64,000 nt of DNA, taken from a virus. A model generated the notes under the pieces. The model had not been told where the DNA came from and ran no database searches. It was given only the letters and a program-made list of their open reading frames with translations. The translations under genes were made by a program, and so were the position numbers. Below are positions 2,344 through 48,735 of this stretch, in pieces (the stretch's first letter is position 1; each line of letters begins with the position of its first letter). The stretch spans positions 6,109-70,108 of the IMG/VR virus record IMGVR_UViG_3300032373_000004. The stretch is one strand, 5' to 3'.

Positions 2344-5300
2344 ATGGAAGATGAAATCTTAGATGGTATAACACCTGCTGAATTTGCAGCAAAAATAAAA
2401 GCTAAATATCCTCAGTATAAAAATATTGAGGATTCTATCTTAGTTGATAAAATGATAACTAAATATCCTGAATATAAGGGTAAAATTAATTACGATGACC
2501 CAACAAAGGGGGGGAAAGCCAAAACAATAAAAAATGGGGATTCCAACTCTGTTTTGGCAGATACAACTTCTTCATTGGAATCAACAAAGACAAATAAATT
2601 TAGATTACCGACAGATGATGAAATGAACACCTTCATAGATAATGGAGGTGTAGTCACTGATTCACCTATGGTTAAAAAAGTTGAGAATATACGTAAAAAG
2701 ATTGAAGCTGAAAATGCTACAAAGAAAAAACAAGCTGCTAAAGAATTAACAGATGATATAGTTTTAAGAACTAAATATCCTGAATTAACTACAGAAAGAG
2801 ATTCTTTAATGAAAGAATTGAAATCAAGGTCTGTAATGAACGATAATTCTGATTTGGAAGATAGACTCTCTGAAATTGATAAAGTGCTTAAATCAGCTCC
2901 TAAGAGCTTTAGAAAGATACGTAAAGAGAAATTAGATGAGATTGATTCCCAAATGAATCAATTAGAAAGAAAAGGATATGCTTTAACAGGTAATTCTGAT
3001 TTTATTGACAGTAGTGGAACGTATCAACAATTGAAAAAAGAACGTGAAGGTGTTCAATATGATATTGATAAAGAAAATGAGACGTTAAATAAACTTACAG
3101 AAGATACTACTATTACTGACCAATTTATTAGATTTTACACGCCTAAATTTTTAGGTAATTGGTTAACACCTGAAAATGAAACAGTTAAATTAGATGAGAA
3201 AGTTGAAGAAAAACTTTTAGCTGAATTAGATTCTAACAAAAGGTTAAAATCTAAAGTTAATTTAGGTGGAAAAAATAGAAATTATTTATCTCTACAAGAT
3301 AGGGAGAATATGATTAAATCTGCTAAAGAGCAAGTATTATTAGATGAAAGTAAATTAATCAAACAAGAGTACGATGAGATAATCAAAGATTCTCAAGGAT
3401 TAAAACCTGATTCAAAAGAATATTTTGAATTACAAAAAAGAATAGAAGGGTTAAATGAAAGAAATAATACTCTTTTATTTAACTACGGTTATGATAAAGT
3501 AAATAATCAATTCAACGATGTTTTCAAAAGAACAACTAGAGGTAAAGATTATGATGAAGCTTTAGGTCAAGGAGGATTGGATGTAGGTTCAACGTTTATT
3601 GAAAGTATGACTAATACTATCTTAGACGGTACAGTAGGTTTTGCTGGGTGGTTAGGTTCTTTAGGAGACGGTTTTACTGACGATGATTCATACTCAATAT
3701 TTGATGCTATGGGTGACACGGCTTATGAGTTATCTAATAATAATTTATTACCTTCTTCTAAATCAGATAAAGGTAATATTGTTGATAAAGATGGTAATTG
3801 GAATTTATCATTATATTCTGTAGGTAAAGCAGGTGCAGAAGGTTTACCTTTTACGTTAGCATTAATTAATAGTGCTCGTAAAGGTAATGTAAAAGAAGCA
3901 TATAAAAAATTAGGAGGACTTATATCTCCTAACAGAGCTAAAACTATATCTCAAAGTTTACAGATGGCTGATAAAGCTTATAGGTTAACTGTATCAGACA
4001 ATAGAAAAGAAGCTTTAAATAACGGACTAGATGGTATACAAGCAATAGCATATGCTAATTTTCAATCTATGGCTACAGGTTTAAGTCAAATGATTATGCC
4101 TGATACTAAATTCTTAAAAACACCTGCTGGAAAAGCAATATTAGGTAAATTCACTAATGATTTAAAAACTGCTACTACTAAAGAAGCTATATCGAAAGCT
4201 TCTAAAGCTTTTATCGGTAATCTAGCTAGAGAGTTAGGTGAAGAAGAGATTGAAGGGGCTATGTCTGAAATGATTAAGTTTGGAATGCTTCAAAATCATT
4301 CTAATGAGTTTTTAACAGCTAGATATCAAAAAGAACTAATTGGTAAAACTCTAATTGTTACAGGTATGGTTGGGGGTGCTGGTATTAAATCTAATATTAA
4401 TGCTACAAAAGATGCTTTATATAAAGATTTAAATAAAAATTATGATGATTTAATTGTAGATATTGATAATATGATGGAATCATCTGACGATGTTACATTT
4501 AAAAAAATATTAAACAACTCTAAAAGATTAATAGGTGATATCAAAGATGTTACCAGTAAGTCTCCTGAAAATGTTAATGGTAAACAAATTGATTTACTAA
4601 TTGAAAAAAAACATTTAATACAAGAGATGAAATCTTTAGATGATTCGTTTCATCCAGAATATAAAGAAAAAATTGAAAACATAAATGAAAAAATTAGAAA
4701 AGAAAGCTCCCTTAAAAGTGAAGCTGATAAAAAGGATTCTGACAAATCCAAAACGAAAACCAACAAAGGGAAGGTCGAAACAAAGACGAATGAGAAGGTA
4801 AAATACGATGTAAATGAACAATTAAAATCTCATAATGAAAATGAAGGTTCTACTTTTACATTAGATGGTAAAAACAGGAGTGGTGAAAAAGGAGTTTCAT
4901 CTGTATCAATATTTCCAGAAAGAAGTAAAATTATTGATGGGAGTATTACTGAGAAAGACATTTCAGATTTTAAAGAAGTTAATAAAGATATATTAAAAGG
5001 AAATGAAGATGTTTTAGCTATAGGTACTTGGTATGATAAATCATCAGGTAAAACTTATTTAGATGTATCTGCTGTTACAGATACTGAATCAGCCACTCGA
5101 TTAGGAGAGCAATATAATCAAAAAGCAATTTTTAATTTAGAAACATTTGAAGAAATTGATACTAAAGGTGATGGTAAACCTGTAAAAAATTTAAAACCAG
5201 AATTAGATAGAGTTTCTGATATTAGAGAAGTATTGAAAAAATCTAAAGGTTATAAAAAAATAGCTGATGAGGTTAGAAAAGTTAAGATTAATAAATCTGT

Positions 5301-8241
5301 TAAAGATTCTATGTCTAAACTTCAATCTAATCCTGTAGGTGGATTATTTTCAGCAGTATGGGATGGGGCTGTAGAAACAGTTGCAAAATCAATAGAAGTT
5401 ACTGGAGATATTAAAGTAGCCATTGAAAAAGGTATTGAATATTTAAAAAATACTGACTGGTATAAAAATCTTTCGAATGAAGGTAAGCAAAGTGCTGAAA
5501 ATATATTTAGAAAAGATGCTTTCAATTCAGTTAATAAACCTGATACAGTTGGAAAAATTGATATTAAAGCAAAGACTAAATTAGGAGAAATTAAAGATGA
5601 TTTAACTAGTAAGTTAATTGATAAATATCATTTTATTAGAAAAGTTCAAAATCAATTAGAAACCATTCAAGGTAAACCATTAGATAAAGAAAGTAATTTC
5701 TCTCAAGCTGAGGTAGCTCTGTATGGTAAAGCATCTAATGATTTAGACATATTTGAAAAAGATATAAAAGAACTTGTGAAAAAAATAAGTAGTAAAAAAC
5801 TTAATCGTAAACAAGTTTCAAAATATTTATATGCTAAACACGCTGTTGAAAGAAATGCTTATGTTAAAGCTAATATAGACCCTAATACAGATAAGGGTTC
5901 TGGTATGACTGATAAAGAAGCCAAAGAGATATTAGATTTATTTACTGATGAACAATTAACTGATTTAAGAGACATATCTATAGATATCGAGGTGATATTA
6001 AATAAAACTCGTAAGAATTTAGTTAAGTTTGGATTAATGTCTCAAAAAGCTGTAGATGCTTTAGAGCAGCGTTATGAGAATTATGTTCCATTAACTAATT
6101 TTGCAGATGTAGATAAAGAAAGTAGTAATTTCATTGATACAGGAGGTAAAATTTCTATAAAAGGAAAAGAGTTTAGAAAAACTAAAGGGCGTTCATCAGA
6201 GGCTGGAGATGTTTTAGCTAATGTTTTATCACAACATCAAGAAATCATTGTAAGAGGTAGAAAAAATGAAGTAATGCAGTCTCTTTACAACATGGTTAAA
6301 GAGAACCCTGATAAAGAATTTTATAGAATATATTCTAGGAACAACCCTGATATGACGAGAGGTATCGGTGCTAATGGTCAAGTTACTCAAGTTAGACAAC
6401 CTATGGAAATGAATAATGATTATGTAGGTGTTAAAGTTGATGGAGAATCATTTTTTATTAAGTTTGCTAATAAAAGATTTGCTCATATACTAAATGCTTC
6501 TAATCTTGAAAAAACAAGGTTTATTGAAAGAACATTCGGTAGAGTTAATAGATATTTAAGTTCAATGTTAACATCATTAAATCCAGAATTCGTTCTATCT
6601 AATTTTTCAAGAGATATTCAAACGGCTGTGATTAATATGATGTCGGAATCAGATATATCGAATAACTCTGTTAAAGACACTAAGATTATAGGTAAAATTA
6701 TAAAATCGACTTTACCTTCTCTTAAAACAATATATAATTCTGAAACAGGTAAGAAGAAAGATACTGAATTAACTAAGTATTATAATGAGTTTAAAGAAGA
6801 TGGTGCTAAAACTGGATGGTTTTATGCTAAAAACACAGAGGATTTAAAAACTGATATAGATAATATTTTTAAATTACAAGACAGTAAGAAAATATCAGCA
6901 ACTAGAGCTAAGGCTGGGTTAAAATCAATATTGAATTATGTAGATAATGTAAATAGTTCAGTTGAAAACGCTGTTAGATTAGCTACATACACAGAAGCTA
7001 GAAAAACTGGTGTGACTAGAGAAGATGCAGCAACATTAGCTAAAGAGCTGACAGTTAACTTTAATAGAAGTGGTGAATGGGGAACGATAGCTAATTCGTT
7101 TTATCTATTCTTTAACGCATCTATTCAAGGTACAGCTAGATTTTGGAGAGCCATGGCTACACTTAAAAAAGTATATGATAGTGAAGGTAACATTACTGGT
7201 AGAAAGTTAAACGCTGGTCAAAAAGTAGCTATGGGAATAGTAGCCTTTTCATCATTAGCTACTATAATGAATCAAATGATGTCTGATGATGACGACGATG
7301 GTAGAAGTTTCTATAGTAAAATCCCTGATTATGAGAAGGAGAGAAATTTAATTATAATGAATCCTAATGGTAAAGATTATTTTAAAATACCTCTACCTTA
7401 TGGTTATAATATATTTCATAATTTAGGTAGTATTACAACAGAAGTATCTACAGGAGAAAGAAGTGTTGGAGATGGAGCAGGTTTTCTATTTAATAGTGCT
7501 GTTGGTGCATTCTCACCTGTTAGCTTTTCGAAATCAGATGATTTATCTGTACAAGGAGCTAAGGCTTTAGTTCCAACTGCTTTTAAACCTATTGTAGAAT
7601 TAGCTGTTAATGAGAATCATTTTGGAGCATCTATTTATAATGAAAATATGCCATTTGATAAAAGTCCTGAACCCGATTCAAATTTAGGTAGACCTAATAC
7701 GAATGCTATATTTAAAAATATGAGTAAATTCATGAATGAAGCTACTGGAGGTTCTGATTATGTTTCTGGAGGAATAGATGTTAATCCTAATACTTTAGAA
7801 TATTTAATGGAGTATTATAGTGGAGGATTAGGTAAGTTTGTAAATAGAACTGCTGCAACTATAAACACAGCTAAAGATAAAATAGAAGGTAAACCTGTAG
7901 ATTTCGAAATGAATAAAATTCCTTTTGTTAGAAAATTTGTTGGGGAGAAAAATAAATATGTCGATAAATCAGATTATTTTGAAGGTTCGACAGAAGTTAG
8001 ACAATTATATGAAGAATATAAAAATAATACTCCTGAGAATAGAAGAAAGGATAAATATAAAAGCGTAGCTCGATTAAAGAAAATGGCTGATGCTATTGAT
8101 AGAGACCTTAAAAAAATAAGGAAACAGAGAAAGAGATTAATGGAGAATAAATCAATTGCTAATCTAGTCAAGTTAAATGAGCTTGAAACCAAAGAGTTGA
8201 AGTTAATATCTAAATTCAACAGAGTTTATGCTGAAAAGTAA
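2344..8241 (+). CDS. giant 1965-aa protein, probable virion-associated (tape-measure/ejection-like) protein
   Basis: Uninterrupted 5.9-kb ORF; coiled-coil-like charged segments, Lys-rich low-complexity stretch (KKDSDKSKTKTNKGKVETKTNEK), Gly-rich segment; strong hairpin terminator immediately downstream. Confidence 0.55.
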   Translation: MEDEILDGITPAEFAAKIKAKYPQYKNIEDSILVDKMITKYPEYKGKINYDDPTKGGKAKTIKNGDSNSVLADTTSSLESTKTNKFRLPTDDEMNTFIDNGGVVTDSPMVKKVENIRKKIEAENATKKKQAAKELTDDIVLRTKYPELTTERDSLMKELKSRSVMNDNSDLEDRLSEIDKVLKSAPKSFRKIRKEKLDEIDSQMNQLERKGYALTGNSDFIDSSGTYQQLKKEREGVQYDIDKENETLNKLTEDTTITDQFIRFYTPKFLGNWLTPENETVKLDEKVEEKLLAELDSNKRLKSKVNLGGKNRNYLSLQDRENMIKSAKEQVLLDESKLIKQEYDEIIKDSQGLKPDSKEYFELQKRIEGLNERNNTLLFNYGYDKVNNQFNDVFKRTTRGKDYDEALGQGGLDVGSTFIESMTNTILDGTVGFAGWLGSLGDGFTDDDSYSIFDAMGDTAYELSNNNLLPSSKSDKGNIVDKDGNWNLSLYSVGKAGAEGLPFTLALINSARKGNVKEAYKKLGGLISPNRAKTISQSLQMADKAYRLTVSDNRKEALNNGLDGIQAIAYANFQSMATGLSQMIMPDTKFLKTPAGKAILGKFTNDLKTATTKEAISKASKAFIGNLARELGEEEIEGAMSEMIKFGMLQNHSNEFLTARYQKELIGKTLIVTGMVGGAGIKSNINATKDALYKDLNKNYDDLIVDIDNMMESSDDVTFKKILNNSKRLIGDIKDVTSKSPENVNGKQIDLLIEKKHLIQEMKSLDDSFHPEYKEKIENINEKIRKESSLKSEADKKDSDKSKTKTNKGKVETKTNEKVKYDVNEQLKSHNENEGSTFTLDGKNRSGEKGVSSVSIFPERSKIIDGSITEKDISDFKEVNKDILKGNEDVLAIGTWYDKSSGKTYLDVSAVTDTESATRLGEQYNQKAIFNLETFEEIDTKGDGKPVKNLKPELDRVSDIREVLKKSKGYKKIADEVRKVKINKSVKDSMSKLQSNPVGGLFSAVWDGAVETVAKSIEVTGDIKVAIEKGIEYLKNTDWYKNLSNEGKQSAENIFRKDAFNSVNKPDTVGKIDIKAKTKLGEIKDDLTSKLIDKYHFIRKVQNQLETIQGKPLDKESNFSQAEVALYGKASNDLDIFEKDIKELVKKISSKKLNRKQVSKYLYAKHAVERNAYVKANIDPNTDKGSGMTDKEAKEILDLFTDEQLTDLRDISIDIEVILNKTRKNLVKFGLMSQKAVDALEQRYENYVPLTNFADVDKESSNFIDTGGKISIKGKEFRKTKGRSSEAGDVLANVLSQHQEIIVRGRKNEVMQSLYNMVKENPDKEFYRIYSRNNPDMTRGIGANGQVTQVRQPMEMNNDYVGVKVDGESFFIKFANKRFAHILNASNLEKTRFIERTFGRVNRYLSSMLTSLNPEFVLSNFSRDIQTAVINMMSESDISNNSVKDTKIIGKIIKSTLPSLKTIYNSETGKKKDTELTKYYNEFKEDGAKTGWFYAKNTEDLKTDIDNIFKLQDSKKISATRAKAGLKSILNYVDNVNSSVENAVRLATYTEARKTGVTREDAATLAKELTVNFNRSGEWGTIANSFYLFFNASIQGTARFWRAMATLKKVYDSEGNITGRKLNAGQKVAMGIVAFSSLATIMNQMMSDDDDDGRSFYSKIPDYEKERNLIIMNPNGKDYFKIPLPYGYNIFHNLGSITTEVSTGERSVGDGAGFLFNSAVGAFSPVSFSKSDDLSVQGAKALVPTAFKPIVELAVNENHFGASIYNENMPFDKSPEPDSNLGRPNTNAIFKNMSKFMNEATGGSDYVSGGIDVNPNTLEYLMEYYSGGLGKFVNRTAATINTAKDKIEGKPVDFEMNKIPFVRKFVGEKNKYVDKSDYFEGSTEVRQLYEEYKNNTPENRRKDKYKSVARLKKMADAIDRDLKKIRKQRKRLMENKSIANLVKLNELETKELKLISKFNRVYAEK

Positions 8242-8277: not shown

Positions 8278-8325
8278 TAATTAATAACCTTAAAACATAG
8301 TTTACAATGACAAAACAAACTATTG

Positions 8326-8399
8326 TGGACTATAATGGATTCGAACCAATGACCTTCTCCTTATGAGGGAGCTGCTCTAACCAACTGAGCTAAAAGTCC
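8326..8399 (-). tRNA. tRNA-Met/Ile2 (anticodon CAU)
   Basis: Acceptor ggactat/aaagtcc, D-arm GCUC..GAGC, anticodon stem GCUCC/GGAGA with loop CUCAUAA, T-loop UUCGAAU. Confidence 0.8.
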
Positions 8400-8616
8400 A
8401 ATTAAAATACTTGCTTAAATTTCAGTTATAAGATACTTAGCAGAACTCCAAACCATTCCACACCCTATTCATAACATCTCCAGTCGAAGTGTTAGTTTTA
8501 AGTACATTTACAATAAATACAACTGCTGATACAGTTTAATAATAACCCTTTTCTTTTAATGTGGTCGAATCACTCTAGGGAATCTCTTATTATTTATCTT
8601 CAATCAAATATTTTAG

Positions 8617-8700
8617 AACAGTAGGAGGGATTCGAACCCCCATTTTCAACTCCAATTACGGTTAACAATTTAGAAAAATGCCTCGGTTACAACTGCTTGA
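8617..8700 (-). tRNA. tRNA-like element, anticodon unresolved (possible pseudo-tRNA)
   Basis: Canonical T-arm gaggg-attcgaa-ccccc on minus strand, but no clean 5' acceptor complement found. Confidence 0.3.
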
Positions 8701-8922
8701 TTTATAATATTTCAATATATTCGATTCCTTTAGGTGTACTTAAAGGCTCACTTATATTAGTAGGTTCTTTCTCCTGTTCAAAGAGAATATCGTACGTTAC
8801 TTTTAACATAAATATCATAATGATATAATTGTTAAAGTGATTAATACTATACATAAAATGAGATAAGTCACTCTATTAAATTTTACATTTTTTGTTATCA
8901 TTTTATTTAATTTTAAAATTTG

Positions 8923-8997
8923 TACTTGAGGTAAGAATCGAACTTACGACCTCTTGTGTGTAAAACAAGTGCTACTGAACCACTGAGCTACTCAAGC
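8923..8997 (-). tRNA. tRNA-Val (anticodon UAC)
   Basis: Acceptor acttgag/ctcaagc (G1-U72), anticodon stem CUUGU/ACAAG loop UUUACAC, T-loop UUCGAUU. Confidence 0.8.
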
Positions 8998-9365
8998 ATT
9001 TTTTCGTGAACTTCTCTATGACAATTTGAACATAATAAATCACATTTATCTAATTCTTTTTTTATGTCTTCAACAGTCTTACCATAATGATTAGATAGTG
9101 TGAAATCTTTTTCATTAGGGTCTTTATGATGAAATTCTAAAGCTGAATTACATTTATTATATCCACAAATAAAACATTTACCACCCTTATAATTTATAAG
9201 TGCTTGTTTTTTATTCTTTCTATTCATATTTTGTCTCAAAATCACTCTATTTTTAACATCGTTATTACAATGATATGATATTGTTGATTTACTACATTTT
9301 AAAATAGAAGCAATTTGGTCATATGTCTTACCTTCTTCTCTTAATTTCAATATTTGTTCTTTCAT
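8988..9365 (-). CDS. HNH homing-type endonuclease with N-terminal HTH
   Basis: CFICGYNKC..EFHHKDPNEKDF..CSNCHREVHE motif. Start trimmed to the internal Met (MKEQILKL), because the table ORF's upstream N-terminus overlaps tRNA-Thr; the C-terminal 10 nt still overlaps tRNA-Val. Confidence 0.6.
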   Translation of the reverse strand: MKEQILKLREEGKTYDQIASILKCSKSTISYHCNNDVKNRVILRQNMNRKNKKQALINYKGGKCFICGYNKCNSALEFHHKDPNEKDFTLSNHYGKTVEDIKKELDKCDLLCSNCHREVHEKMLE

Positions 9366-9410
9366 AATACAAATATAATAAATATTCGAATACGGTAATT
9401 TTCGAACTAG

Positions 9411-9482
9411 AGCCCAATGCAAGAATCGAACTTGCTTCCAGTGATTACAAAACACTACATCATCCCTAAATGCTTATCGGAC
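9411..9482 (-). tRNA. tRNA-Thr (anticodon UGU)
   Basis: Acceptor gcccaat pairs atcggac with G-U wobbles; T-arm gcaag-aatcgaa-cttgc; anticodon loop UUUGUAA; D-stem weak. Confidence 0.55.
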
Positions 9483-9753
9483 ATTTGAGGAATTTCGTTT
9501 CCTCAATTACGTGCTTAGGCAACCATTCTAAATGATTGTGTAGCAAAAACATTAACTCTTTTTCCAGTTAATTAAATAAGAATATTCTCTTTAATACTTT
9601 TATAATGCAATCAAATCCAGACACCCCCATGGAAGAGTAGTTTTTAAATAGAACACTCCTGAGAAAACTATAGGACTACTGATTAACAGTTGTCTCCACC
9701 ATTCATTTTTGAAAGAAATGAAAAACTTAATTAGGTATACCACTACATAATTG

Positions 9754-9818
9754 TGGAGGTGGAGGGATTCGAACCCTCGTCTTACAAAAAATCATATTAC
9801 GTCAATGAACAATTCTTG
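9754..9818 (-). tRNA. truncated tRNA-like fragment (T-arm plus 3' acceptor strand only)
   Basis: gaggg-attcgaa-ccctc T-arm but only about 40 nt before next tRNA; contains CTTACAAAAAA, the reverse orientation of the repeat motif seen at 12.7-13.4 kb. Confidence 0.3.
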
Positions 9819-9895
9819 CGGTCTAAGAGGGATTCGAACCCTCGTTTTAGAGCAGTGACAGTGCAATTCCCCACACCAATGGAGCATATTAAACC
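9819..9895 (-). tRNA. tRNA, probably Asp (anticodon GUC)
   Basis: Acceptor ggtctaa/ttaaacc (one G-U), T-arm gaggg-attcgaa-ccctc, loop CUGUCAC as in bacterial tRNA-Asp but anticodon stem only 3 bp. Confidence 0.45.
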
Positions 9896-10032
9896 AGATA
9901 GGAGACTTGTTCACAATTTCTAGTATTTGCTGTCTCCTAAAAATAATTAAGGGTAAGTTCTACCGAGCATAGTGCCTACTCATCGGTGATTAAGGGTTTG
10001 ACACATCCCTTCTCTTACCTTACATTACTTAG

Positions 10033-10110
10033 TAGCGGAGGTGGGAGTCGAACCCAGTAAGACGAGCTTATGAGACTGTCTAGCAACCCTGCTTCCTACA
10101 ACCGCAATGT
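10033..10110 (-). tRNA. tRNA-like element, unresolved (T-arm gtggg-agtcgaa-cccag)
   Basis: Clear T-arm and CUCAUAA-like loop but acceptor and anticodon stems do not close; promoter-like box immediately upstream at 10115-10122. Confidence 0.3.
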
Positions 10111-10114
10111 TATG

Positions 10115-10122
10115 CAAATATA
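10115..10122 (-). promoter_or_regulatory. putative -7 promoter element (TAnnTTTG type) inside tRNA array
   Basis: Reverse complement of caaatata = TATATTTG, embedded in ..ttcttatatttgcat.. Confidence 0.35.
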
Positions 10123-10167
10123 AGAATAGTTTTTAAACTATCAAATATTTTTCATATTTATTTTTAG

Positions 10168-10241
10168 ACGGAGTAGTGGGAATCGAACCCACTCTATTTC
10201 TGATTGGAAGTCAGATGCACCACCAACTATGCGTTACTCCG
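10168..10241 (-). tRNA. tRNA-Gly (anticodon UCC)
   Basis: Acceptor cggagta/tactccg perfect, D-stem GCAU/GUGC, anticodon stem UCUGA/UCAGA with loop CUUCCAA, T-arm gtggg-aatcgaa-cccac. Confidence 0.65.
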
Positions 10242-10294
10242 TGGAGAAGGACAGGTTATTTATACCTTTAAGGGAGTCCTTCACACCCTTCTTG

Positions 10295-10368
10295 TAGGAA
10301 TAGATGGATTCGAACCATCAACTTCCACCTTATCAGGGTGGTGCTCTAACCTGTTGAACTATACTCCT
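10295..10368 (-). tRNA. tRNA-Ile (anticodon GAU)
   Basis: Acceptor aggaata/tactcct, D-stem GUUC/GAGC, anticodon stem CCACC/GGUGG with loop CUGAUAA, perfect T-arm. Confidence 0.8.
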
Positions 10369-10476
10369 ATTTGTTATCCCTAACAGTTCTCCTTGTAATG
10401 GTCTAGTGTGACCATACTTAGTGTGTTTTTCGGGGTTTCTGGTTTAGATAACAGTACTATAAACCCTTTTTCCTTG

Positions 10477-10549
10477 TTCCCCCAGAAGGACTCGAACCTA
10501 CGACTCTTCCGTTAAAAGCGGAATACTCTACCAACTGAGTTATGAGGGA
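10477..10549 (-). tRNA. tRNA-Lys (anticodon UUU)
   Basis: Acceptor tccccca/tgaggga, D-stem ACUC/GAGU, anticodon stem UUCCG/CGGAA with loop CUUUUAA. Confidence 0.8.
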
Positions 10550-10556
10550 ATATTTG

Positions 10557-10630
10557 TGGAACAGGTGGGTCTTGAACCCACAACTCTCGGAATGCAAAAC
10601 CAAGATACGAGCCACTTGTTTATCTGCCCC
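10557..10630 (-). tRNA. tRNA-Ala (anticodon UGC)
   Basis: Acceptor ggaacag/ctgcccc with two G-U pairs; T-arm gtggg-tcttgaa-cccac; loop UUUGCAU; anticodon stem 4 bp. Confidence 0.55.
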
Positions 10631-10816: not shown

Positions 10817-12655
10817 TTAAATATTATTTTTAACAAACTCTCTAACAGGTGCATACCTATTAGTACGTGATAGTGATAATAATGGTGTATACACATCATA
10901 TGTGTCCATATCCCTAAAATTAGTTAGTAACATTTCGATACTAGCTGGATTAGGTGGTACAACCATAATATTATCAATTCCTGAGAAACGTGTCACTTTA
11001 GCTGACATACTTCTACTAACATCAATCAATACTATATATGGCTTAAAACCGAAATATTTTTCACATTTTCTCATGAAATCATTCATGCTAGATTCTGGAG
11101 AACGCATATTATTAAACTCACCATCAGAAATTAAAGTCCAAATAGGGTACTTTTGTAATTCTTCAAGTTTATTAGGGTCTCCATTAACCCAAGCATTAAT
11201 ACCTTCTGGAATAGATGATATGTTTGTCATACCATTATTACATTTACCATTTAACCAGCTAGACATTCTTTTTAAATTATTTAAAAATGTATCTTCTGGG
11301 TCTATCAATGGTTTAGTAGGTGTTCCATAAGTTCTACCTTTCATTAAAGAATTAGGTCTAACTGTTTGACTACTAATACCATTATACATTCTACAGTTAC
11401 CTGCAAACAATCCAATCATATTACGAGCATCCACATCAGGGTTTTTCATCATTGTGATTGTAGCCATAAAAGCTGCAAACTGATAAGGTTTATAACCCAT
11501 ATTATGTCCTCCCCATCCCATACTACCAGAATCATCCATAAAAATTAAAGAATTATAAGGTAAGTTAATACTATCTAAAAATGGCTGAATCTTTATTTCA
11601 TCAACTCTACCGTTAATAATATCTTCAAACATTTTTGTAAAAGAATTAGCTCCTACATTAACCTTAGCCTCTTTCTTAACTTTTGCTAAACTATCTTTTT
11701 CTGCTTTAGTAGCTGTTCCTTGAGTAATTTTTTCTTCAAGTTTACGTTGTTCAGCTTGTTTAGTTTCTTTATAAGATTCCCAAGCCTGATAGTATTCTTT
11801 AAATTTAACCCATTTCTCTCCGAACATAACTCTATTACGAACTCTAAAACGAGCATCAGATGGCATTTTATCAATCATTTCAATGAAAGCTTCTTTATCC
11901 ATGTCTTTAATTGCCCCAGAAGAGAATATTACAGACTCAAAACCTTGATTAAATTCTTTTCTCCAATTATAAAAACCTGTAAAGTCTACATAAGTTCCTT
12001 TATCTTCAAATGGTAATCTAGCTTGTGTTGAAATTTCAGTCAGTAATTTAGCCTTAGTTTCCATTACTTTAACCGTTTCTGGTAACATTTGTGTATTACC
12101 ACTACGTTTAGAAAACCTAGGACGAGTAACAAATTTAGCTACACATATCTTTTGGAAAGGAGTACCTTTATTAATTATATTACTAACATAACTAGCTACA
12201 TCTTTTAAACCAAATAAGTTTACCATATCAATAACAGATATTACTGACTTTGTTCCTTTTTTAGTTTTAACTCTCACAGATAAAATATTATCCATAGTTG
12301 TATATTCAGTAATTAAGGTCATTAGAGCTATTCTCTTAGGTTTTCTAAGAGTTTTAATCTTAGATATTAAGAATGGTATAATAGTGTCTCTAAACACTTC
12401 TCTTTGACCATTTCCACCACCGTCTACTTTACCATCAAAAATATTATGTTGTCTATTTGTAACATCACCTACAAAGAACAATACTGTAACTAATGTAGCT
12501 AATTGTTCTTTATTTTCACATTCATTCCAAGCAGCTTCTAATTTTGAAGTTGTTGGAGTCATTCCTTTAGATGCTGATTGATATAGCTCTAAAGTGTTCT
12601 TCATCCCATAAAAAGGATTACTATCTTTCGTATTGAATTCTACTTGTTTAATCAT
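10817..12655 (-). CDS. von Willebrand factor A (vWA) domain protein, 612 aa
   Basis: MIDAS motif FMDDSGSMGWGG (DxSxS) in C-terminal half; long ORF with terminator downstream. Confidence 0.6.
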   Translation of the reverse strand: MIKQVEFNTKDSNPFYGMKNTLELYQSASKGMTPTTSKLEAAWNECENKEQLATLVTVLFFVGDVTNRQHNIFDGKVDGGGNGQREVFRDTIIPFLISKIKTLRKPKRIALMTLITEYTTMDNILSVRVKTKKGTKSVISVIDMVNLFGLKDVASYVSNIINKGTPFQKICVAKFVTRPRFSKRSGNTQMLPETVKVMETKAKLLTEISTQARLPFEDKGTYVDFTGFYNWRKEFNQGFESVIFSSGAIKDMDKEAFIEMIDKMPSDARFRVRNRVMFGEKWVKFKEYYQAWESYKETKQAEQRKLEEKITQGTATKAEKDSLAKVKKEAKVNVGANSFTKMFEDIINGRVDEIKIQPFLDSINLPYNSLIFMDDSGSMGWGGHNMGYKPYQFAAFMATITMMKNPDVDARNMIGLFAGNCRMYNGISSQTVRPNSLMKGRTYGTPTKPLIDPEDTFLNNLKRMSSWLNGKCNNGMTNISSIPEGINAWVNGDPNKLEELQKYPIWTLISDGEFNNMRSPESSMNDFMRKCEKYFGFKPYIVLIDVSRSMSAKVTRFSGIDNIMVVPPNPASIEMLLTNFRDMDTYDVYTPLLSLSRTNRYAPVREFVKNNI

Positions 12656-12914
12656 CTTTCGTTTTAATTTAATTGTTATTATTGTAAGTAAAAAATTTTA
12701 CATTATTAATGATATAAAAAGGGAGATTTCTCTCCCTAATTACAAAATTCCAAAAACTATGTTACTATCAACGGAAACATAACTCTTTTAAGATACTTGT
12801 TTTGTATAATTGATTTTAAGTCAATCGCCTTAACCACTTGGCAACAAAAGCATTATGGAGCTTTCGACAGGAATCGAACCTGCGTTTATAGTAGTTTTTG
12901 TAAGTATCTATTTG

Positions 12915-13026
12915 TGGCGAGGGTTGGACTCGAACCAACAGTTTTAGTTTATGAGACTAACGTTTTACCTATATGTTGTTTTTGTAAGTAACATCGTTAC
13001 TTAAATTGTTTTTAAACAACCTCGCC
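12915..13026 (-). tRNA. tRNA (anticodon CAU) carrying an about 40-nt insertion in the D-loop region
   Basis: Acceptor ggcgagg at 12916-22 and perfect complement cctcgcc at 13020-26; T-arm gttgg-actcgaa-ccaac; anticodon stem UUAGU/ACUAA with loop CUCAUAA; insert contains hairpin AGUAAC-GAU-GUUACU and UACUUACAAAAA. Confidence 0.55.
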
Positions 13027-13035
13027 ATATTTTAG

Positions 13036-13153
13036 GGGGGAGTGTAGGATTCGAACCTACGACATCGTGCATCCAAAGCAAATGTAGTTTGATTTTGTAA
13101 GTATCATTAGATACTTGTTACGTTACGTGCTCTACCAACTGAGCTAACTCCCC
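13036..13153 (-). tRNA. tRNA with about 45-nt internal insertion, anticodon unresolved
   Basis: Acceptor ggggagt (13037-43) with perfect complement actcccc (13147-53) preceded by gagcta; canonical D-arm GCUC-AGUUGGUA-GAGC; perfect T-arm gtagg-attcgaa-cctac; insert carries hairpin AGUAUC-UAAU-GAUACU plus UACUUACAAAA. Confidence 0.5.
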
Positions 13154-13172
13154 CATATAAAAGCTACTTATG

Positions 13173-13259
13173 TTTACAATGTGGGATTCGAACCCACTAC
13201 CTTAATTATTGAAAAATTACGTTCTAACCAAATGAACTAAATGTATTTTTGTATTGTAA
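13173..13259 (-). tRNA. tRNA with anticodon UCA (opal-reading/suppressor-like) and a 13-nt 5' insertion
   Basis: Acceptor ttacaat/attgtaa perfect; D-arm GUUC-AUUUGGUUA-GAAC; anticodon stem UAAUU/AAUUA with loop UUUCAAU; T-arm gtggg-attcgaa-cccac; 13 extra nt between acceptor and D-arm. Confidence 0.5.
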
Positions 13260-13447
13260 GTAGCTATATTTTATTATTTTAAAGAACTTGGTAAGTCACT
13301 TGTTAAATACGGAATTGAACCGCTTAGTTTGCTTAAAAGGCAAATGATGAACCAAACATCAAATTTAGTTTGATTGTAAGTGACTATATTACTGATTTTA
13401 TTCTACGGTGTAAAGATATATTTAATATTCTTAACTACCAAACTTTT

Positions 13448-13904: not shown

Positions 13905-13954
13905 AAACAGATATATTTAACCACCAAATTTTTCGATAAATATTTTTATCATTG

Positions 13955-14026
13955 ACTTTCTGGAAGGAGTCGAACCTTCGTCTAAAGCTTCGTAGGCAAT
14001 GGTTTTTCCAATTAAACTACAGAAAG
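13955..14026 (-). tRNA. tRNA-Arg (anticodon ACG)
   Basis: Acceptor ctttctg/cagaaag perfect, D-stem GUUU/AAAC, loop CUACGAA, T-arm gaagg-agtcgaa-ccttc. Confidence 0.6.
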
Positions 14027-14064
14027 ATTTTGTCACAAATATATGCTATAATTGTGACAATTTG

Positions 14065-14138
14065 TACCCCAGACAGGGCTCGAACCTGTAAAACTCAATG
14101 CTTAAAACTGATATGTATTCCAATTCCATCACTGGGGC
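14065..14138 (-). tRNA. tRNA with anticodon UAA (Leu-type anticodon, short variable arm)
   Basis: Acceptor accccag/ctggggc, anticodon stem UCAGU/AUUGA with loop UUUAAGC, perfect T-arm acagg-gctcgaa-cctgt. Confidence 0.5.
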
Positions 14139-14151
14139 ATAAACAACATTG

Positions 14152-14224
14152 TACTCCAAGTAGGATTCGAACCTACAAATTTCAGGGTCTAAACCTGTTG
14201 CCTATTCCATTCGGCTATTGGAGT
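14152..14224 (-). tRNA. tRNA with anticodon UAG (Leu-type anticodon, short variable arm)
   Basis: Acceptor actccaa/ttggagt perfect, anticodon stem ACAGG/CCUGA with loop UUUAGAC, perfect T-arm. Confidence 0.5.
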
Positions 14225-14229
14225 ATTAG

Positions 14230-14315
14230 GGTGAAAGATGGGATTCGAACCCACGAAATCTTTTCAGATGCCAGAATCACAATCTGGTGCATTTGACCAC
14301 TCTGCTACAATCACC
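14230..14315 (-). tRNA. tRNA-His (anticodon GUG) with encoded G-1:C73 and 16-nt variable region
   Basis: Anticodon stem CCAGA/UCUGG perfect with loop UUGUGAU; extra 5' G opposite discriminator C; acceptor has two U-U mismatches. Confidence 0.6.
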
Positions 14316-14322
14316 ATATTAG

Positions 14323-14395
14323 TAGGAATATCAAGACTCGAACTTGAAATATGGAATTCAAAGTTCCATGTGTTAACCAGTTACACTATACTCCA
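14323..14395 (-). tRNA. tRNA-Gln (anticodon UUG)
   Basis: D-stem GUGU/ACAC, anticodon stem UGGAA/UUCCA with loop CUUUGAA, perfect T-arm tcaag-actcgaa-cttga. Confidence 0.7.
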
Positions 14396-14435
14396 ATATA
14401 CTTGGACACTATGTCTAAGATAATGTCCAAGTTAG

Positions 14436-14515
14436 TACTCCCTGTGGGAATCGAACCCACTCTCCAAAAAGGCTAGGTTGAAAGCCTAGTCGCTCACCCA
14501 ATTGCATTAAGGAGC
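14436..14515 (-). tRNA. tRNA-Glu (anticodon UUC) with extended variable region
   Basis: Anticodon stem CUAGG/CCUAG perfect with loop CUUUCAA; acceptor actccct/aaggagc with G-U pairs; 12-nt variable region. Confidence 0.5.
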
Positions 14516-14523: not shown

Positions 14524-14599
14524 TCTGAGAAGTTGGATTCGAACCAACGGAATATCTATCTTCCAAAGATAGCGAGTACAGCCTCTGCATTGTTCCCAG
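14524..14599 (-). tRNA. tRNA-Pro (anticodon UGG)
   Basis: Anticodon stem CUAUC/GAUAG perfect with loop UUUGGAA, perfect T-arm gttgg-attcgaa-ccaac, acceptor ctgagaa/ttcccag. Confidence 0.55.
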
Positions 14600-15118: not shown

Positions 15119-15466
15119 TTAATCTAATATTACCCAATCATTCTCTAAAACATCTGATGGAGATGCTACCCATCCATAAATAGTATTATCTGGATAAACC
15201 ATTGCTAATTGGTTTTTATAATCAATCGTACTATGATTATGTGCACCTCCTCCAGTACTAATATCAGTAATACTTAATCTTCTTAAAAATTCATCTTTTA
15301 CTGATTGTGGTAAAGATTGCATTTTTGGTACTGTTTCTGCAACATTAATTCTAGCAGGTACTTGCATAAAAATGAATAATTCTTTCCCATTCCAACCTAC
15401 TCTAGCAACTCTTTTACCTTGCTTTAAAGCGATTACCGCTTTTCCAAAACTTACTTGTTCGTTCAT
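15119..15466 (-). CDS. hypothetical protein (115 aa)
   Basis: ORF overlapping the next gene by 4 nt (operon-like packing). Confidence 0.5.
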   Translation of the reverse strand: MNEQVSFGKAVIALKQGKRVARVGWNGKELFIFMQVPARINVAETVPKMQSLPQSVKDEFLRRLSITDISTGGGAHNHSTIDYKNQLAMVYPDNTIYGWVASPSDVLENDWVILD

Positions 15467-21822: not shown

Positions 21823-23379
<1,557 letters not shown>

Positions 23380-48299: not shown

Positions 48300-48382
48300 G
48301 GGGATGGAAAGCTATTCGGATATAGCAGCAGGTCTGTAAAACCTGTCCTTAATTGGGAGTGGTTCGAGTCCACCCAGCCCCA
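48300..48382 (+). tRNA. tRNA-Tyr (anticodon GUA), long variable arm
   Basis: Anticodon stem caggt/acctg perfect with loop CUGUAAA; acceptor ggggatg/cagcccc; T-loop TTCGAGT; 12-nt variable region. Confidence 0.55.
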
Positions 48383-48470
48383 CGAGGCTGATAACTTACA
48401 GAAAGAAAGAAACAGGAAAAAGAGTTAGTGATTTTTGGTGGTTATGCACTTGATTATGAAACCATCGCAG

Positions 48471-48562
48471 GGAAGAGTTATCCGAAAGATTCTGGGTAGC
48501 GGAGACGGTCTTGAAAACCGTTTGTTGTAAAAGATGTGAGGGTTCGAATCCCTTCTCTTCCT
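48471..48562 (+). tRNA. tRNA-Ser (anticodon UGA), type II
   Basis: Acceptor ggaagag/ctcttcc perfect; anticodon stem acggt/accgt with loop CUUGAAA; 16-nt variable arm; T-arm gaggg-ttcgaat-ccctt. Confidence 0.7.
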
Positions 48563-48656
48563 CAAATAGAAAGTAAACCAGTAAGGTACTGGACTCCCCT
48601 GCTAAGGGATGTGAGGGTAAAACCTTGAGAATCGTGTTCTCTTCTTTCTGCTAAAA

Positions 48657-48728: not shown

Positions 48729-48735
48729 CTAAAAT

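What the first reader, a model, noticed from the sequence alone, without database searches (positions are those of the whole stretch)
12686..13400. tRNA genes split by a family of short hairpin repeats (TTTTGTAAGT-hairpin)
Three tRNA genes at 12915-13026, 13036-13153 and 13173-13259 have perfect 7/7 acceptor-stem complements (ggcgagg/cctcgcc, ggggagt/actcccc, ttacaat/attgtaa) plus canonical T-arms, but are 112, 118 and 87 nt long. The extra 13-45 nt sit in the D-loop region or between acceptor and D-arm and consist of a repeat unit found at least 6 times in this 700-bp locus (12691, 12899, 12982, 13097, 13254, 13374; near-copy at 13291): (T)TTTGTAAGT + 6-7-bp hairpin (e.g. AAGTAAC-atcg-GTTACTT, AAGTATC-atta-GATACTT). 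Two additional T-arm plus 3'-acceptor fragments (12860-12883, 13301-13324) are associated with the same repeat, and the reverse-orientation motif CTTACAAAAAA lies in the truncated tRNA fragment at 9754-9818. These could be miniature introns, processing signals, or a tiny mobile/palindromic element that targets tRNA genes. An HNH endonuclease gene (8988-9365) sits in the same array. Tiny insertions like these in the D-loop or acceptor-proximal part of phage tRNA genes are not something I know to be described.
Basis: seen in the sequence. Interest (0 to 1): 0.8.

Follow-up and report, generated by a model that had tools for sequence, protein, structure and literature searches.

The report
Ro60-like protein's tagged tRNA-shaped RNAs
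The short hairpin repeats are real, but they are best read as a shared RNA "handle" that marks five tRNA-shaped RNAs, and the messenger of the neighbouring gene, for binding by that gene's Ro60-like ring protein; this would be an unusual phage version of the Ro60/Y-RNA particle rather than a mobile element, and whether any handle is also cut out as an intron is still open.

Summary
The repeat is real and far from chance. ACTTACAA (minus strand) occurs 7 times in 64 kb, 6 of them within 700 bp on the tRNA strand. Each copy is the 3' strand of a 7-8 bp helix (AAGUnnn/nnnACUU) followed by single-stranded ACAA.

The helix sits:
- inside two otherwise perfect tRNAs: Pro(UGG) in the anticodon stem, Met(CAU) in the D-loop;
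- as a leader-trailer stem around two tRNA-like genes (UCA, Lys-like);
- around a circularly permuted tRNA-Leu(UAA)-like gene;
- across the start codon of the adjacent 612-aa gene.

Best reading: the module is the recognition stem of a Ro60-like ribonucleoprotein, and the RNAs are Y-RNA-like tRNA mimics or tagged pre-tRNAs. This is inferred; binding was not shown. Excision to give working tRNAs is not excluded. Mobile-element, promoter and pseudogene readings are poorly supported. It is a new variant of a known kind.

The parts
13378..13385 (-). Helix strand B (AGUCACUU), 5' of the Lys-like unit, followed by ACAAUCAA (13377-13370).
   Evidence: Sequence; ACTTACAA match at 13374-13381; pairs with 13294-13301 in the minimum-energy fold.
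13301..13369 (-). tRNA-like gene with anticodon loop CUUUUAA (UUU). The first two acceptor pairs are mismatched.
   Evidence: Rfam tRNA 33.5 bits, full model; conserved in L129 and L130; its T-arm is deleted in L128.
13294..13301 (-). Helix strand A (AAGUGACU), partner of 13378-13385.
   Evidence: 8 of 8 complementary; part of the minimum-energy fold, z -3.6.
13258..13265 (-). Helix strand B (AGCUACUU), 5' of the tRNA(UCA) unit, followed by ACAAUACAAAA. UUACAAU (13259-13253) can also pair 7/7 with the 3' acceptor strand.
13172..13246 (-). tRNA(UCA), an opal-suppressor-type anticodon. The acceptor stem pairs only 5/7 with its proximal 5' strand.
   Evidence: ARAGORN; Rfam 54.9 bits. The orthologous unit carries UCC in L128, UCA in L129 and CAU in L130.
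13162..13169 (-). Helix strand A (AAGUAGCU), partner of 13258-13265.
   Evidence: 8 of 8 complementary. L130 has the compensated pair AGUUACUU/AAGUAACU.
13036..13153 (-). tRNA-Pro(UGG) gene carrying a 45-nt module in the 5' strand of the anticodon stem.
   Evidence: Rfam 49.7 bits, full model. Removing 13124-13080 gives a 73-nt tRNA-Pro with stem CGUGC/GCACG. Orthologues keep the insert.
13080..13124 (-). The insert: spacer AACGUAAC, helix AAGUAUC (13116-13110), loop UAAU, helix GAUACUU (13105-13099), tail ACAAAAUCAAACUACAUUU. The boundary is ambiguous by 1 nt.
   Evidence: The same layout (spacer 6-10 nt, tail 16-19 nt, site 28/29) is seen in L129, L130, L140, L169 and Serratia phage BF.
12915..13026 (-). 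tRNA-Met(CAU)-type gene carrying the module in the D-loop. Acceptor stem GGCGAGG/CCUCGCC.
   Evidence: Not called as it stands; 188 of 442 trial deletions give tRNA-Met(cat). The acceptor stem changes by two compensatory pairs in L129.
12975..13011 (-). Approximate D-loop insert: helix AAGUAAC (13002-12996), loop GAU, helix GUUACUU (12992-12986), then ACAAAAACAAC. The exact boundaries cannot be defined.
   Evidence: The helix becomes AAGUGAUU/AGUCACUU in L129 and AAGUGGAU/AUUCACUU in L130, G-U pairs counted.
12791..12909 (-). Circularly permuted tRNA-Leu(UAA)-like gene. In order: strand B AGAUACUU (12909-12902), 18-nt ACAA tail, T-arm (12883-12867), 3' acceptor CGAAAGC-U-CCA (12866-12856), linker UAAU, 5' acceptor GCUUUUG (12851-12845), D-arm, anticodon arm (12825-12809), UAUACAAAAC, strand A AAGUAUCU (12798-12791).
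   Evidence: Sequence. The minimum-energy fold gives exactly these arms. The rejoined halves give tRNA-Leu(taa) in 129 of 132 joins. A permuted Phe(GAA) version with a compensated acceptor stem is in L124, and 11 more permuted units are in relatives.
12720..12737 (-). Terminator-like hairpin AGGGAGA-gaaa-UCUCCCU followed by a T run, between the RNA cluster and the protein gene.
   Evidence: conserved with compensatory changes in L128-L130.
12638..12693 (-). Module on the 612-aa gene's own mRNA. Strand B UUUUACUU (12693-12686) and ACAAU lie in the 5' UTR. Strand A AAGUAGAA (12645-12638) covers codons 4-6. The helix encloses the AUG (12655-12653).
   Evidence: An equivalent helix in 22 relatives is 90% paired, against 29-59% when the partner columns are shifted. 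At least four different helix sequences occupy this position across subfamilies.
10817..12655 (-). Gene for a 612-aa Ro60-fold protein: a helical ring domain plus a von Willebrand A domain with an invariant DxSxS metal site (D374, S376, S378).

Best explanation
The repeat is a cis-acting RNA module: a 7-8 bp helix whose closing pairs are always AAGU/ACUU, followed on the 3' side by single-stranded ACAA and a G-poor tail. It is most likely the recognition stem of the Ro60-fold protein encoded immediately downstream (10817-12655, minus strand).

The five RNAs upstream of that gene are tRNA-shaped partners that carry this handle at different points on the tRNA body:
- anticodon stem (Pro);
- D-loop (Met);
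- variable region of a circularly permuted gene (Leu-like);
- acceptor end (UCA and Lys-like).

They would correspond to the Y RNAs, in particular the tRNA-like YrlA RNAs, that sit beside Ro60 genes in bacteria and some phages.

The copy on the protein's own mRNA encloses the start codon. It probably acts as an autoregulatory operator: protein binding stabilises a weak helix and blocks initiation.

Shown here: the module, its pairing and covariation, its co-occurrence with the gene, the Ro60 fold of the predicted structure, and the tRNA-like bodies.

Inferred: that the protein binds the module, that the operator regulates translation, and what the particle does. Possibilities include tethering to tRNA-binding enzymes, decoy or repair roles against tRNA-cutting host defences, and control of pre-tRNA maturation.
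For: 1. Clustering. Six of the 7 ACTTACAA copies in 64 kb lie within 700 bp on the tRNA strand.

2. One module, several arrangements: a local hairpin inside two tRNAs; a long-range stem around two tRNA-like genes, a permuted gene, half-tRNAs and non-tRNA RNAs; and around the AUG of the neighbouring gene.

3. The pairing is selected. In 47 loci, 161 of 321 copies have a full 8-bp partner, against 11% when their own 4 variable bases are shuffled. There are 41 distinct complementary variants. Orthologues show compensatory changes.

4. Strand bias: 329 copies on the gene's strand against 45 on the other, with a median of 7 copies per ~10-kb locus.

5. Link to the gene. The 612-aa protein is the only protein conserved across these loci. 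In an IMG/VR pattern scan, genuine multi-copy loci nearly all held a homologue in the same locus of 15 kb or less.

7. Precedent. Y RNAs with tRNA-like domains lie next to Ro60 genes in more than 250 bacteria and phages (PMC4201824). Two Y-like RNA genes lie just upstream of the Thermus phage phiLo Ro60 gene (PMC12135203).

8. The operator helix is conserved but thermodynamically weak (-1.9 kcal/mol, z 0.44), as expected for a protein-dependent switch.

9. In some relatives the module replaces the D arm, so it is a permanent part of those RNAs.
Against: - No binding or expression data exist. The link between protein and module rests on co-occurrence and analogy.
- The module has no sequence likeness to known Ro60 sites. 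The Rfam YrlA model scores only 25.2 and 15.2 bits, against a threshold of 69.
- The RNAs keep canonical 7-nt anticodon loops with U33 and a purine at 37, and a wide range of anticodons. YrlA lacks an anticodon arm, and a pure protein handle would not need one.
- Pro(UGG) is otherwise not supplied by any canonical tRNA gene in the window, which hints that at least this gene is meant to become a working tRNA.
- Serratia phage BF has a very similar insert at the same tRNA position. No homologue of the protein was detected by tblastn, and no large gene lies in its tRNA region.
- Two copies (TACAAT versions) score as weak sigma-70 -10 boxes.
Confidence: 0.55

Rival explanations
1. True intervening sequences and permuted genes. 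The module is cut out by a protein endonuclease and the ends are joined by a host or phage RNA ligase. This would yield working tRNA-Pro and tRNA-Met, with the permuted gene maturing through a circular intermediate. The Ro60-like protein would at most be a chaperone that holds the pieces. This rival overlaps with the best explanation rather than excluding it.
For: - Removing 45 nt restores a perfect tRNA-Pro. Removing the D-loop insert restores tRNA-Met. The rejoined halves give tRNA-Leu.
- GC-rich 7/7 acceptor stems are kept by compensatory changes.
- Anticodon loops are canonical and anticodons diverse, including suppressor types.
- Pro(UGG) is not supplied by any canonical tRNA gene in the window.
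- The layout recurs in six independent tRNAs: site 28/29, spacer 6-10 nt, tail 16-19 nt.
- Lak megaphages have unexplained tRNA 'introns' (PMC6784885).
Against: - Four of the six copies in the window, and most copies in relatives, bracket things that have no exons to join, including the AUG of a protein gene.
- No bulge-helix-bulge structure forms at the junctions, and there is no group I signal.
- No RNA ligase, RtcB or splicing endonuclease was found among ORFs above 130 aa, and no protein neighbour is conserved.
- In some relatives excision would leave no D arm.
- Three of the five tagged RNAs duplicate canonical tRNAs in the same window.
- No insert-free allele was found.
Confidence: 0.25
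2. Generic processing stems. The leader-trailer helices and hairpins are cleavage sites for a host double-strand or stem-specific RNase, as in rRNA or T7 mRNA processing. They would punctuate the polycistronic tRNA transcript and have no connection with the 612-aa protein.
For: The stems flank RNA units and sit between genes. The helix is selected for pairing.
Against: - Helices of 7-8 bp are short for RNase III.
- The invariant AAGU/ACUU-ACAA sequence implies sequence-specific recognition.
- The module is absent from the window's other tRNA clusters (8325-10630, 13954-14515, 48300-48972).
- It tracks the 612-aa gene across loci.
- Cleavage at the operator would sever the start of the gene's own mRNA.
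Confidence: 0.08
3. Promoter or transcription-start element. ACTTACAAT contains TACAAT, a -10-like hexamer, and each unit would have its own promoter. The hairpins would be incidental or terminator-like.
For: - Two copies (13253-13282 and 12681-12709) and one site just upstream of strand B score 9/12 as sigma-70-like promoters.
- A copy follows a terminator and precedes the protein gene.
- GATACTTACAGCC is the -10 region of the T7 A1 promoter (sequence quoted in 10.1101/2020.03.07.982082).
Against: - Promoter-like sites are no more frequent than in shuffled sequence (9 against 10.0 +/- 2.9).
- A promoter does not explain a covarying partner strand 13-110 nt away.
- Copies inside tRNAs have TACAAA.
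- The variable bases fall where a -10 box would be most constrained.
- The motif is missing upstream of the other genes in 64 kb.
Confidence: 0.07
4. Miniature mobile palindromic DNA element (MITE, or like the hairpin elements of the IS200/IS605 family) that inserts into tRNA genes and leaves pseudogenes.
For: It is a short hairpin repeat containing TTAC. The L129 copy is flanked by a 9-nt direct repeat AAAAACAAG. An HNH endonuclease gene lies in the array. BF annotates its copy as tRNA-Pseudo.
Against: - No presence/absence polymorphism among syntenic loci.
- Bodies and helices evolve by compensatory change.
- Half the copies are split, with the partner strand 50-110 nt away.
- No transposase was found.
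- The copies share only an 8-12 nt core rather than an element-length sequence.
Confidence: 0.05

Closest known systems
Ro60 (Rsr) with Y RNAs, especially tRNA-like YrlA (Chen et al. 2014, PMC4201824)
   Same: - A ring-shaped Ro60-fold protein with a von Willebrand A / metal-site domain.
- Several small RNA genes directly beside it.
- RNAs with a stem formed by distant strands plus a tRNA-like body.
- The permuted unit has the YrlA order: T-arm, closed acceptor hairpin, D-arm.
   Different: - The protein is not a TROVE member by sequence (only weak DUF2828; no PDB sequence hit).
- The module sequence is unrelated, and the YrlA covariance model fails (25 bits against 69).
- The RNAs keep a full anticodon arm.
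- The stem can be grafted inside an otherwise complete tRNA.
- There are up to 12 copies per locus.
- A copy sits on the protein's own start codon.
Thermus phage phiLo Ro60 with Yrl1/Yrl2 (PMC12135203)
   Different: The phiLo RNAs are classic stem-bulge-stem Y RNAs with a CGAA motif, not tRNA-shaped. There are two RNAs rather than five or more.
Circularly permuted tRNA genes (Cyanidioschyzon merolae and some archaea) and Nanoarchaeum split tRNAs (reviewed in PMC4090602 and PMC4033280; the mechanism is from my own knowledge)
   Same: The 3' half lies upstream of the 5' half. The acceptor ends are joined by a short linker. A helix formed by the outer flanks brings the break point together.
   Different: Those use a bulge-helix-bulge motif and the archaeal/eukaryotic splicing endonuclease. 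Here there is no such motif, the host is presumably bacterial, and processing is unproven.
'Enigmatic' tRNA introns of Lak megaphages (Devoto et al. 2019, PMC6784885)
   Same: Over-long phage tRNA genes flagged as pseudo-tRNAs, with conserved inserts of unknown mechanism.
   Different: The one Lak insert whose sequence I read (tRNA-Tyr) is 93 nt, sits next to the anticodon, contains a nested tRNA-like sequence and lacks the AAGU/ACUU-ACAA module. No Ro60-like link has been reported.
Translational operators of phage RNA-binding proteins (T4 RegA, gp32, MS2 coat; own knowledge)
   Same: A protein's recognition structure is placed over its own start codon.
   Different: Here this is inferred only from sequence. 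The helix spans the 5' UTR and codons 4-10.

Membership tests
Ro60 / TROVE protein family (for the 612-aa protein) | Helical-repeat ring followed by a von Willebrand A domain with a metal-binding site | tested here: met
Ro60 / TROVE protein family (for the 612-aa protein) | Sequence match to the TROVE domain profile | tested here: not met
   No Pfam TROVE hit. Only DUF2828 (3 of 30 members, best E 1.2e-5) and VWA_2. No PDB sequence hit, even with a profile.
Ro60 / TROVE protein family (for the 612-aa protein) | Binds Y RNA stems or misfolded RNAs | not testable with these tools
   Needs gel-shift assays or pull-down and sequencing.
YrlA / Y RNA | Encoded next to a Ro60 gene | tested here: met
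   Five module-bearing RNAs lie within 750 nt upstream of the Ro60-fold gene. The same is seen in 46 related loci.
YrlA / Y RNA | Stem formed by the 5' and 3' ends of the RNA | tested here: inconclusive
   Three of the five RNAs (Lys-like, UCA, permuted Leu) have a flanking stem. In Pro and Met the stem is an internal hairpin. The true RNA ends are unknown.
YrlA / Y RNA | tRNA-like domain in the order T-arm, closed acceptor, D-arm, without an anticodon arm | tested here: not met
   Only the permuted unit has that order, and it keeps a complete anticodon arm. The others are in normal tRNA order.
YrlA / Y RNA | Scores above the Rfam RF02553 gathering threshold | tested here: not met
   25.2 and 15.2 bits against a threshold of 69.
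Archaeal/eukaryotic protein-spliced tRNA introns | Bulge-helix-bulge motif at the exon-intron junctions | tested here: not met
   The junctions at 13125/13124 and 13080/13079 lie 8-9 nt and 18-19 nt from a plain 7-bp hairpin. No 3-4-3 motif appears in the fold or on inspection.
Archaeal/eukaryotic protein-spliced tRNA introns | The insert is removed from the mature RNA | not testable with these tools
   Needs RNA sequencing or a Northern blot.
Group I self-splicing tRNA introns | Ribozyme core of about 200 nt or more, detectable by covariance model | tested here: not met
   The inserts are 37-45 nt. No intron family appears in Rfam at E up to 10.
Circularly permuted tRNA genes | 3' half upstream of 5' half, with complementary acceptor strands joined by a linker | tested here: met
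   12883-12856 then 12851-12809. Acceptor strands GCUUUUG/CGAAAGC pair 7/7. The rejoined halves are called tRNA-Leu. Eleven further examples in relatives, and L124 has a compensated acceptor stem.
Circularly permuted tRNA genes | Maturation through a circular intermediate to a working tRNA | not testable with these tools
   Needs RNA data.
MITE or IS200/IS605-type palindromic mobile element | Presence/absence polymorphism, target-site duplication, cognate transposase | tested here: not met
   There are no empty sites among the syntenic loci. No transposase was found. One 9-nt direct repeat was seen, in L129 only.

The most novel reading that the evidence does not exclude
Bacteriophages make some of their tRNAs, including stop-codon suppressors, from interrupted and circularly permuted genes. 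The pieces would be brought together by a universal helix tag bound by a Ro60-like chaperone, then cut and re-ligated by host enzymes. That would be the first protein-dependent (non-self-splicing) tRNA introns and permuted tRNA genes in the bacterial world. The Ro60-like protein would time the release of these tRNAs and regulate its own synthesis through the same tag.
Probability: 0.2. Interest if true: 0.9.

Novelty: new variant of a known kind. Interest (0 to 1): 0.72.

Why it matters
Ro60/Y-RNA particles are conserved from bacteria to humans and Ro60 is a major lupus autoantigen. What their tRNA-like Y RNAs do is still unclear.

This locus suggests a previously unlinked protein family (DUF2828 plus von Willebrand A; about 190 clusters at 50% identity, all from metagenomes, and unnamed in every source checked) that has the Ro60 fold. 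It comes with an unusually readable RNA partner code:
- one short helix tag, in 41 covarying variants;
- grafted at four different places on tRNA bodies;
- also placed on the protein's own start codon.

That gives three things:
- a testable recognition motif;
- a natural series of 'tRNA plus handle' designs that shows where a tRNA tolerates an extra arm;
- circularly permuted tRNA-like genes in phages.

It also explains why standard tRNA finders miss or mislabel these genes as pseudo-tRNAs, which matters for counting phage tRNAs and suppressor tRNAs. If the tags prove to be excised, it would add a new kind of RNA splicing to bacteria.

Tried and rejected
- **GenBank phages.** No close relative of the region or of the first 20 kb. 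tblastn of the 612-aa protein found nothing.
- **Serratia phage BF.** Its look-alike insert turned out to be a single copy in a 50-kb tRNA region with no large gene nearby. Its relation to this system is unproven, and I did not use it as support.
- **IMG/VR scan for the hairpin pattern alone.** It gave almost only chance hits: 1 genuine hit in 120.
- **Insert-free allele.** A search for an insert-free tRNA-Pro allele found none.
- **crAss-like promoter idea.** The crAss papers describe a different, tripartite motif. The sigma-70 scan was not enriched.
- **Conserved protein partner.** I looked for a ligase, nuclease or kinase near the gene. None is conserved and none was found among the large ORFs of the window. 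The only candidate is a metallophosphoesterase at 35622-36410.
- **TGA recoding.** I tested it as an explanation for the UCA tRNA and found no clear signal.
- **ARAGORN intron mode on the Pro gene.** It gives a poor Val(AAC) with an anticodon-loop intron. I rejected it in favour of the perfect Pro(UGG) solution.
- **DUF2828 literature.** Nothing relevant.
- **Supplement of the jumbo-phage survey.** Not held in the library.
Full report
**1. What is in the sequence**

All tRNA genes of this array are on the minus strand. It has 7 exact matches in the window, about the number expected by chance for 64 kb. Six of them lie in 12682-13381, all on the tRNA strand. The cluster is therefore far from chance.

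In each copy the bases ...ACUU are the 3' strand ('B') of a 7-8 bp helix. Its 5' strand ('A') reads AAGU... The helix is followed by single-stranded ACAA and a G-poor tail.

**2. Six copies, four arrangements**

(a) tRNA-Pro(UGG), 13153-13036.
- It matches the whole Rfam tRNA model at 49.7 bits, but has 56 nt where 11 are expected.
- Removing 45 nt (13124-13080) after position 28/29 gives a perfect anticodon stem CGUGC/GCACG and loop UUUGGAU. ARAGORN then calls a 73-nt tRNA-Pro.
- The insert consists of spacer AACGUAAC, hairpin AAGUAUC-uaau-GAUACUU and tail ACAAAAUCAAACUACAUUU.

(b) tRNA-Met(CAU) type, 13026-12915.
- The acceptor stem is GGCGAGG/CCUCGCC. The hairpin AAGUAAC-gau-GUUACUU plus ACAAAAAC sits in the D-loop.
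- ARAGORN calls nothing in the intact sequence. It calls tRNA-Met in 188 of 442 trial deletions.

(c) Two tRNA-like genes are bracketed by the helix rather than interrupted by it.
- tRNA(UCA), 13246-13172: AGCUACUU ... AAGUAGCU.
- A weak Lys(UUU)-like gene, 13369-13301 (33.5 bits): AGUCACUU ... AAGUGACU.

(d) 12909-12791 is a circularly permuted tRNA-Leu(UAA)-like gene.
- Its order is: strand B, an 18-nt tail, T-arm, 3' acceptor CGAAAGC-U-CCA, linker UAAU, 5' acceptor GCUUUUG, D-arm, anticodon arm, UAUACAAAAC, strand A.
- The minimum-energy fold returns exactly these arms.
- The computationally rejoined halves are called tRNA-Leu in 129 of 132 joins.

(e) The sixth copy lies in the 5' UTR of the next gene (strand B 12693-12686). 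It pairs with codons 4-6 of that gene (12645-12638), so the helix encloses the AUG.

The reverse-oriented CTTACAAAAAA at 9754-9818 is unrelated; it sits in a tmRNA-3'-end-like fragment.

**3. The RNAs and the helix are under selection**

Close relatives of the neighbouring protein gave syntenic loci: L128 (89% identity), L129 (77%) and L130 (75%). In the alignment:
- Every unit keeps its module at the same place.
- The Pro-type gene keeps the insert while its acceptor stem changes from GGGGAGU/ACUCCCC to GGAGGGG/CCCCUCC. The inner anticodon stem changes from GC/GC to CC/GG. The anticodon itself changes (UGG, UUG, UGA).
- The Met-type gene changes two acceptor pairs by compensation (to ACCGAGG/CCUCGGU). 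Its helix changes from AAGUAAC/GUUACUU to AAGUGAUU/AGUCACUU or AAGUGGAU/AUUCACUU.
- The UCA unit's flanking helix becomes AGUUACUU/AAGUAACU in L130.

These are not decaying pseudogenes, and there are no empty sites.

Across 47 loci:
- ACTTACA occurs 329 times on the gene's strand and 45 times on the other. The median is 7 copies per ~10-kb locus.
- 161 of 321 copies have a full 8-bp partner, against 11% when their own four variable bases are shuffled. There are 41 distinct complementary variants.
- Partners lie either 13-15 nt upstream (hairpins) or about 50-60 nt or about 90-110 nt downstream.

Among 141 distinct helix-bracketed units:
- ARAGORN complete tRNAs.
- It permuted tRNAs, found only when the unit is duplicated in tandem.
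- 38 have a T-arm but no call.
- 67 have no T-arm.

The anticodon-stem insert at 28/29, with a spacer of 6-10 nt and a tail of 16-19 nt, recurs in Trp(CCA) in L140 and Asn(GUU) in L169. The neighbouring protein in L169 is only 37% identical.

**4. The neighbouring gene**

The 612-aa ORF (10817-12655, minus strand) is the only protein conserved across these loci.
- It has no significant Pfam family. There are weak DUF2828 and VWA_2 matches in a few members and a weak hit to phrog_850 'RNA-binding protein'.
- A 30-sequence alignment shows an invariant DxSxS metal site.
- The AlphaFold model is confident (mean pLDDT 84.8, pTM 0.85).
- Viral structural relatives are DUF7788/VWFA proteins of giant viruses and of Acinetobacter phage ME3.
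- The family is small: 190 representatives out of 1.84 billion. It is unnamed in every source checked.

**5. Linking the module to the protein**

Ro60 proteins bind Y RNAs through a stem formed by distant strands. Y RNA genes lie beside Ro60 genes in more than 250 bacteria and phages, and at least one per species has a tRNA-like domain (PMC4201824). Phage phiLo has two Y-like RNA genes directly upstream of its Ro60 gene (PMC12135203).

Here, five stem-bearing tRNA-shaped RNAs lie directly upstream of a Ro60-fold gene. The module is absent from the window's other three tRNA clusters.

The copy on the gene's own mRNA is the most telling.
- In most relatives, (C/U)GUUACUU in the 5' UTR pairs with AAGUAAC(G/A) at about codons 8-10.
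- In the window's subfamily, UUUUACUU pairs with AAGUAGAA at codons 4-6.
- In other subfamilies, GGACACUU/AAGUGUCC or AGAUACUU/AAGUAUUU lie just upstream of the AUG.
- In a 22-locus alignment the helix is 90% paired, against 29-59% when the partner columns are shifted. The terminal pair is U-A in 8, C-G in 5 and U-G in 3.
- The helix is thermodynamically weak (-1.9 kcal/mol).

This is what one expects of an operator that needs its protein. A recognition structure placed over a gene's own start codon is the classic layout of autoregulated RNA-binding proteins (own knowledge).

An IMG/VR scan for 'motif + 12-24 nt + GGTTCGA' returned mostly chance hits. The genuine multi-copy loci nearly all carried a homologue of the protein within the same locus of 15 kb or less.

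**6. Mechanism I consider most likely, and its limits**

The module is the protein's recognition stem. The RNAs are Y-RNA-like tRNA mimics or tagged pre-tRNAs. The handle is attached where a tRNA can carry an extra arm: the D-loop, the variable region, the acceptor end, or one face of the anticodon stem.

Supporting a permanent handle:
- In some relatives the module replaces the D arm.
- Bracketed tRNAs repeatedly have their first two acceptor pairs mismatched.
- Three of the five tagged RNAs duplicate canonical tRNAs of the same window.

Against a pure handle:
- The anticodon loops are canonical and the anticodons diverse, including UCA in several lineages and UUA.
- Pro(UGG) is otherwise not supplied by any canonical tRNA gene in the window.

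Excision, or for bracketed genes ordinary RNase P and 3'-end trimming, may therefore still release working tRNAs. In that case the protein could be controlling when this happens. Nothing here shows binding, transcription boundaries or processing.

**7. Rivals**

- Splicing explains only the two interrupted genes and the permuted one. It lacks any known junction motif or enzyme.
- The promoter reading is weak. Sigma-70-like sites are not enriched (9 against 10.0 +/- 2.9). Two TACAAT copies do score as -10 boxes, but a promoter cannot explain a covarying partner strand.
- The mobile-element reading fails on the lack of polymorphism and of a transposase.
- Serratia phage BF carries a strikingly similar insert at the same tRNA position: 9-nt spacer, hairpin AAGAUUCAAG/CUUGAAUCUU, ACAG..., 18-nt tail. 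It is a single copy with no detectable homologue of the protein. I leave its relation open, and it counts mildly against an exclusive link to the protein.

**8. Unexplained**

The 3' acceptor strand AUUGUAA of the UCA unit pairs 7/7 with UUACAAU inside the motif. It pairs only 5/7 with its proximal 5' strand in the window and 6/7 in the related loci. It may reflect alternative precursor folds or common ancestry of the acceptor stem and the motif.

**9. Verdict**

The locus is best filed as a new variant of the Ro60/Y-RNA system. It is of real interest to RNA biologists and can be tested directly by binding assays and small-RNA sequencing.

Noticed in passing
window 13172-13246 (-), and the whole window: The tagged tRNA has anticodon UCA, which reads UGA. 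TGA ends only 2 of 43 long ORFs (TAA 38, TAG 3). Treating TGA as sense does not clearly merge ORFs. The same helix-bracketed UCA tRNA recurs in several related loci, and one locus has a UUA tRNA.
   Followed up: partly
window 14524-14599 (-): A sub-threshold tRNA (26.9 bits). It has acceptor stem CUGGGAA/UUCUCAG, anticodon loop UUUGGAA (UGG) and an aberrant D region. ARAGORN misses it.
   Followed up: partly
window 9751-9843 (-): A T-arm followed by CCACCUCCA resembles the 3' end of tmRNA (22.8 bits, below threshold). It shares its T-arm sequence with the adjacent tRNA-Asp. A relative (L124 3846-4233) has a full tmRNA by ARAGORN.
   Followed up: partly
window 14229-14314 (-) and 14435-14515 (-): tRNA-His (86 nt) and tRNA-Glu (81 nt) are over-long, apparently through an enlarged variable region. 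They carry no ACUUACAA module.
   Followed up: no
window 15119-15466 (-), 2344-8241 (+), 33322-34833 (-), 36413-37240 (-), 21823-23376 (-): A set of anti-defence and auxiliary genes: a Tad2-like anti-Thoeris domain; a 1965-aa protein with a DarB-like C-terminal region; nicotinamide phosphoribosyltransferase plus PRPP synthase (NAD salvage); and a GroEL homologue.
   Followed up: no
window 45781-46488 (+) and 48300-48972 (+): A serine recombinase/invertase gene lies next to a second tRNA cluster (Tyr, Asn, Trp, Phe, Cys). That cluster is on the opposite strand and has no module copies.
   Followed up: no
L169 ~6604, L146 ~3710, L132 ~846 and ~3087: In relatives, RNAs with perfect GC-rich acceptor stems and a T-arm have the hairpin module in place of the D arm. 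Rfam did not call the one I checked as tRNA (L169 ~6604).
   Followed up: partly
L136 ~5867, L140 ~5865, L152/L153 ~5840 (just after the stop codon of the 612-aa homologue): A conserved ~50-60-nt non-tRNA RNA bracketed by UGAUACUU/AAGUAUCA follows the Ro60-like gene in many relatives. It may be a plain Y-like RNA.
   Followed up: no
L001 1506-1627 (-) = Serratia phage BF 296567-296691: The annotated 'tRNA-Pseudo' is a tRNA-Lys(UUU) with a 49-nt hairpin insert after position 28 (48.6 bits). The Erwinia jumbo phages pEa_SNUABM_12, _47, _19 and _44 give the same BLAST match.
   Followed up: partly
window 59302-62166 (+): The large terminase ORF is 954 aa, but its match to the terminase profile covers only residues 239-947, leaving about 240 N-terminal residues unmatched.
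   Followed up: no
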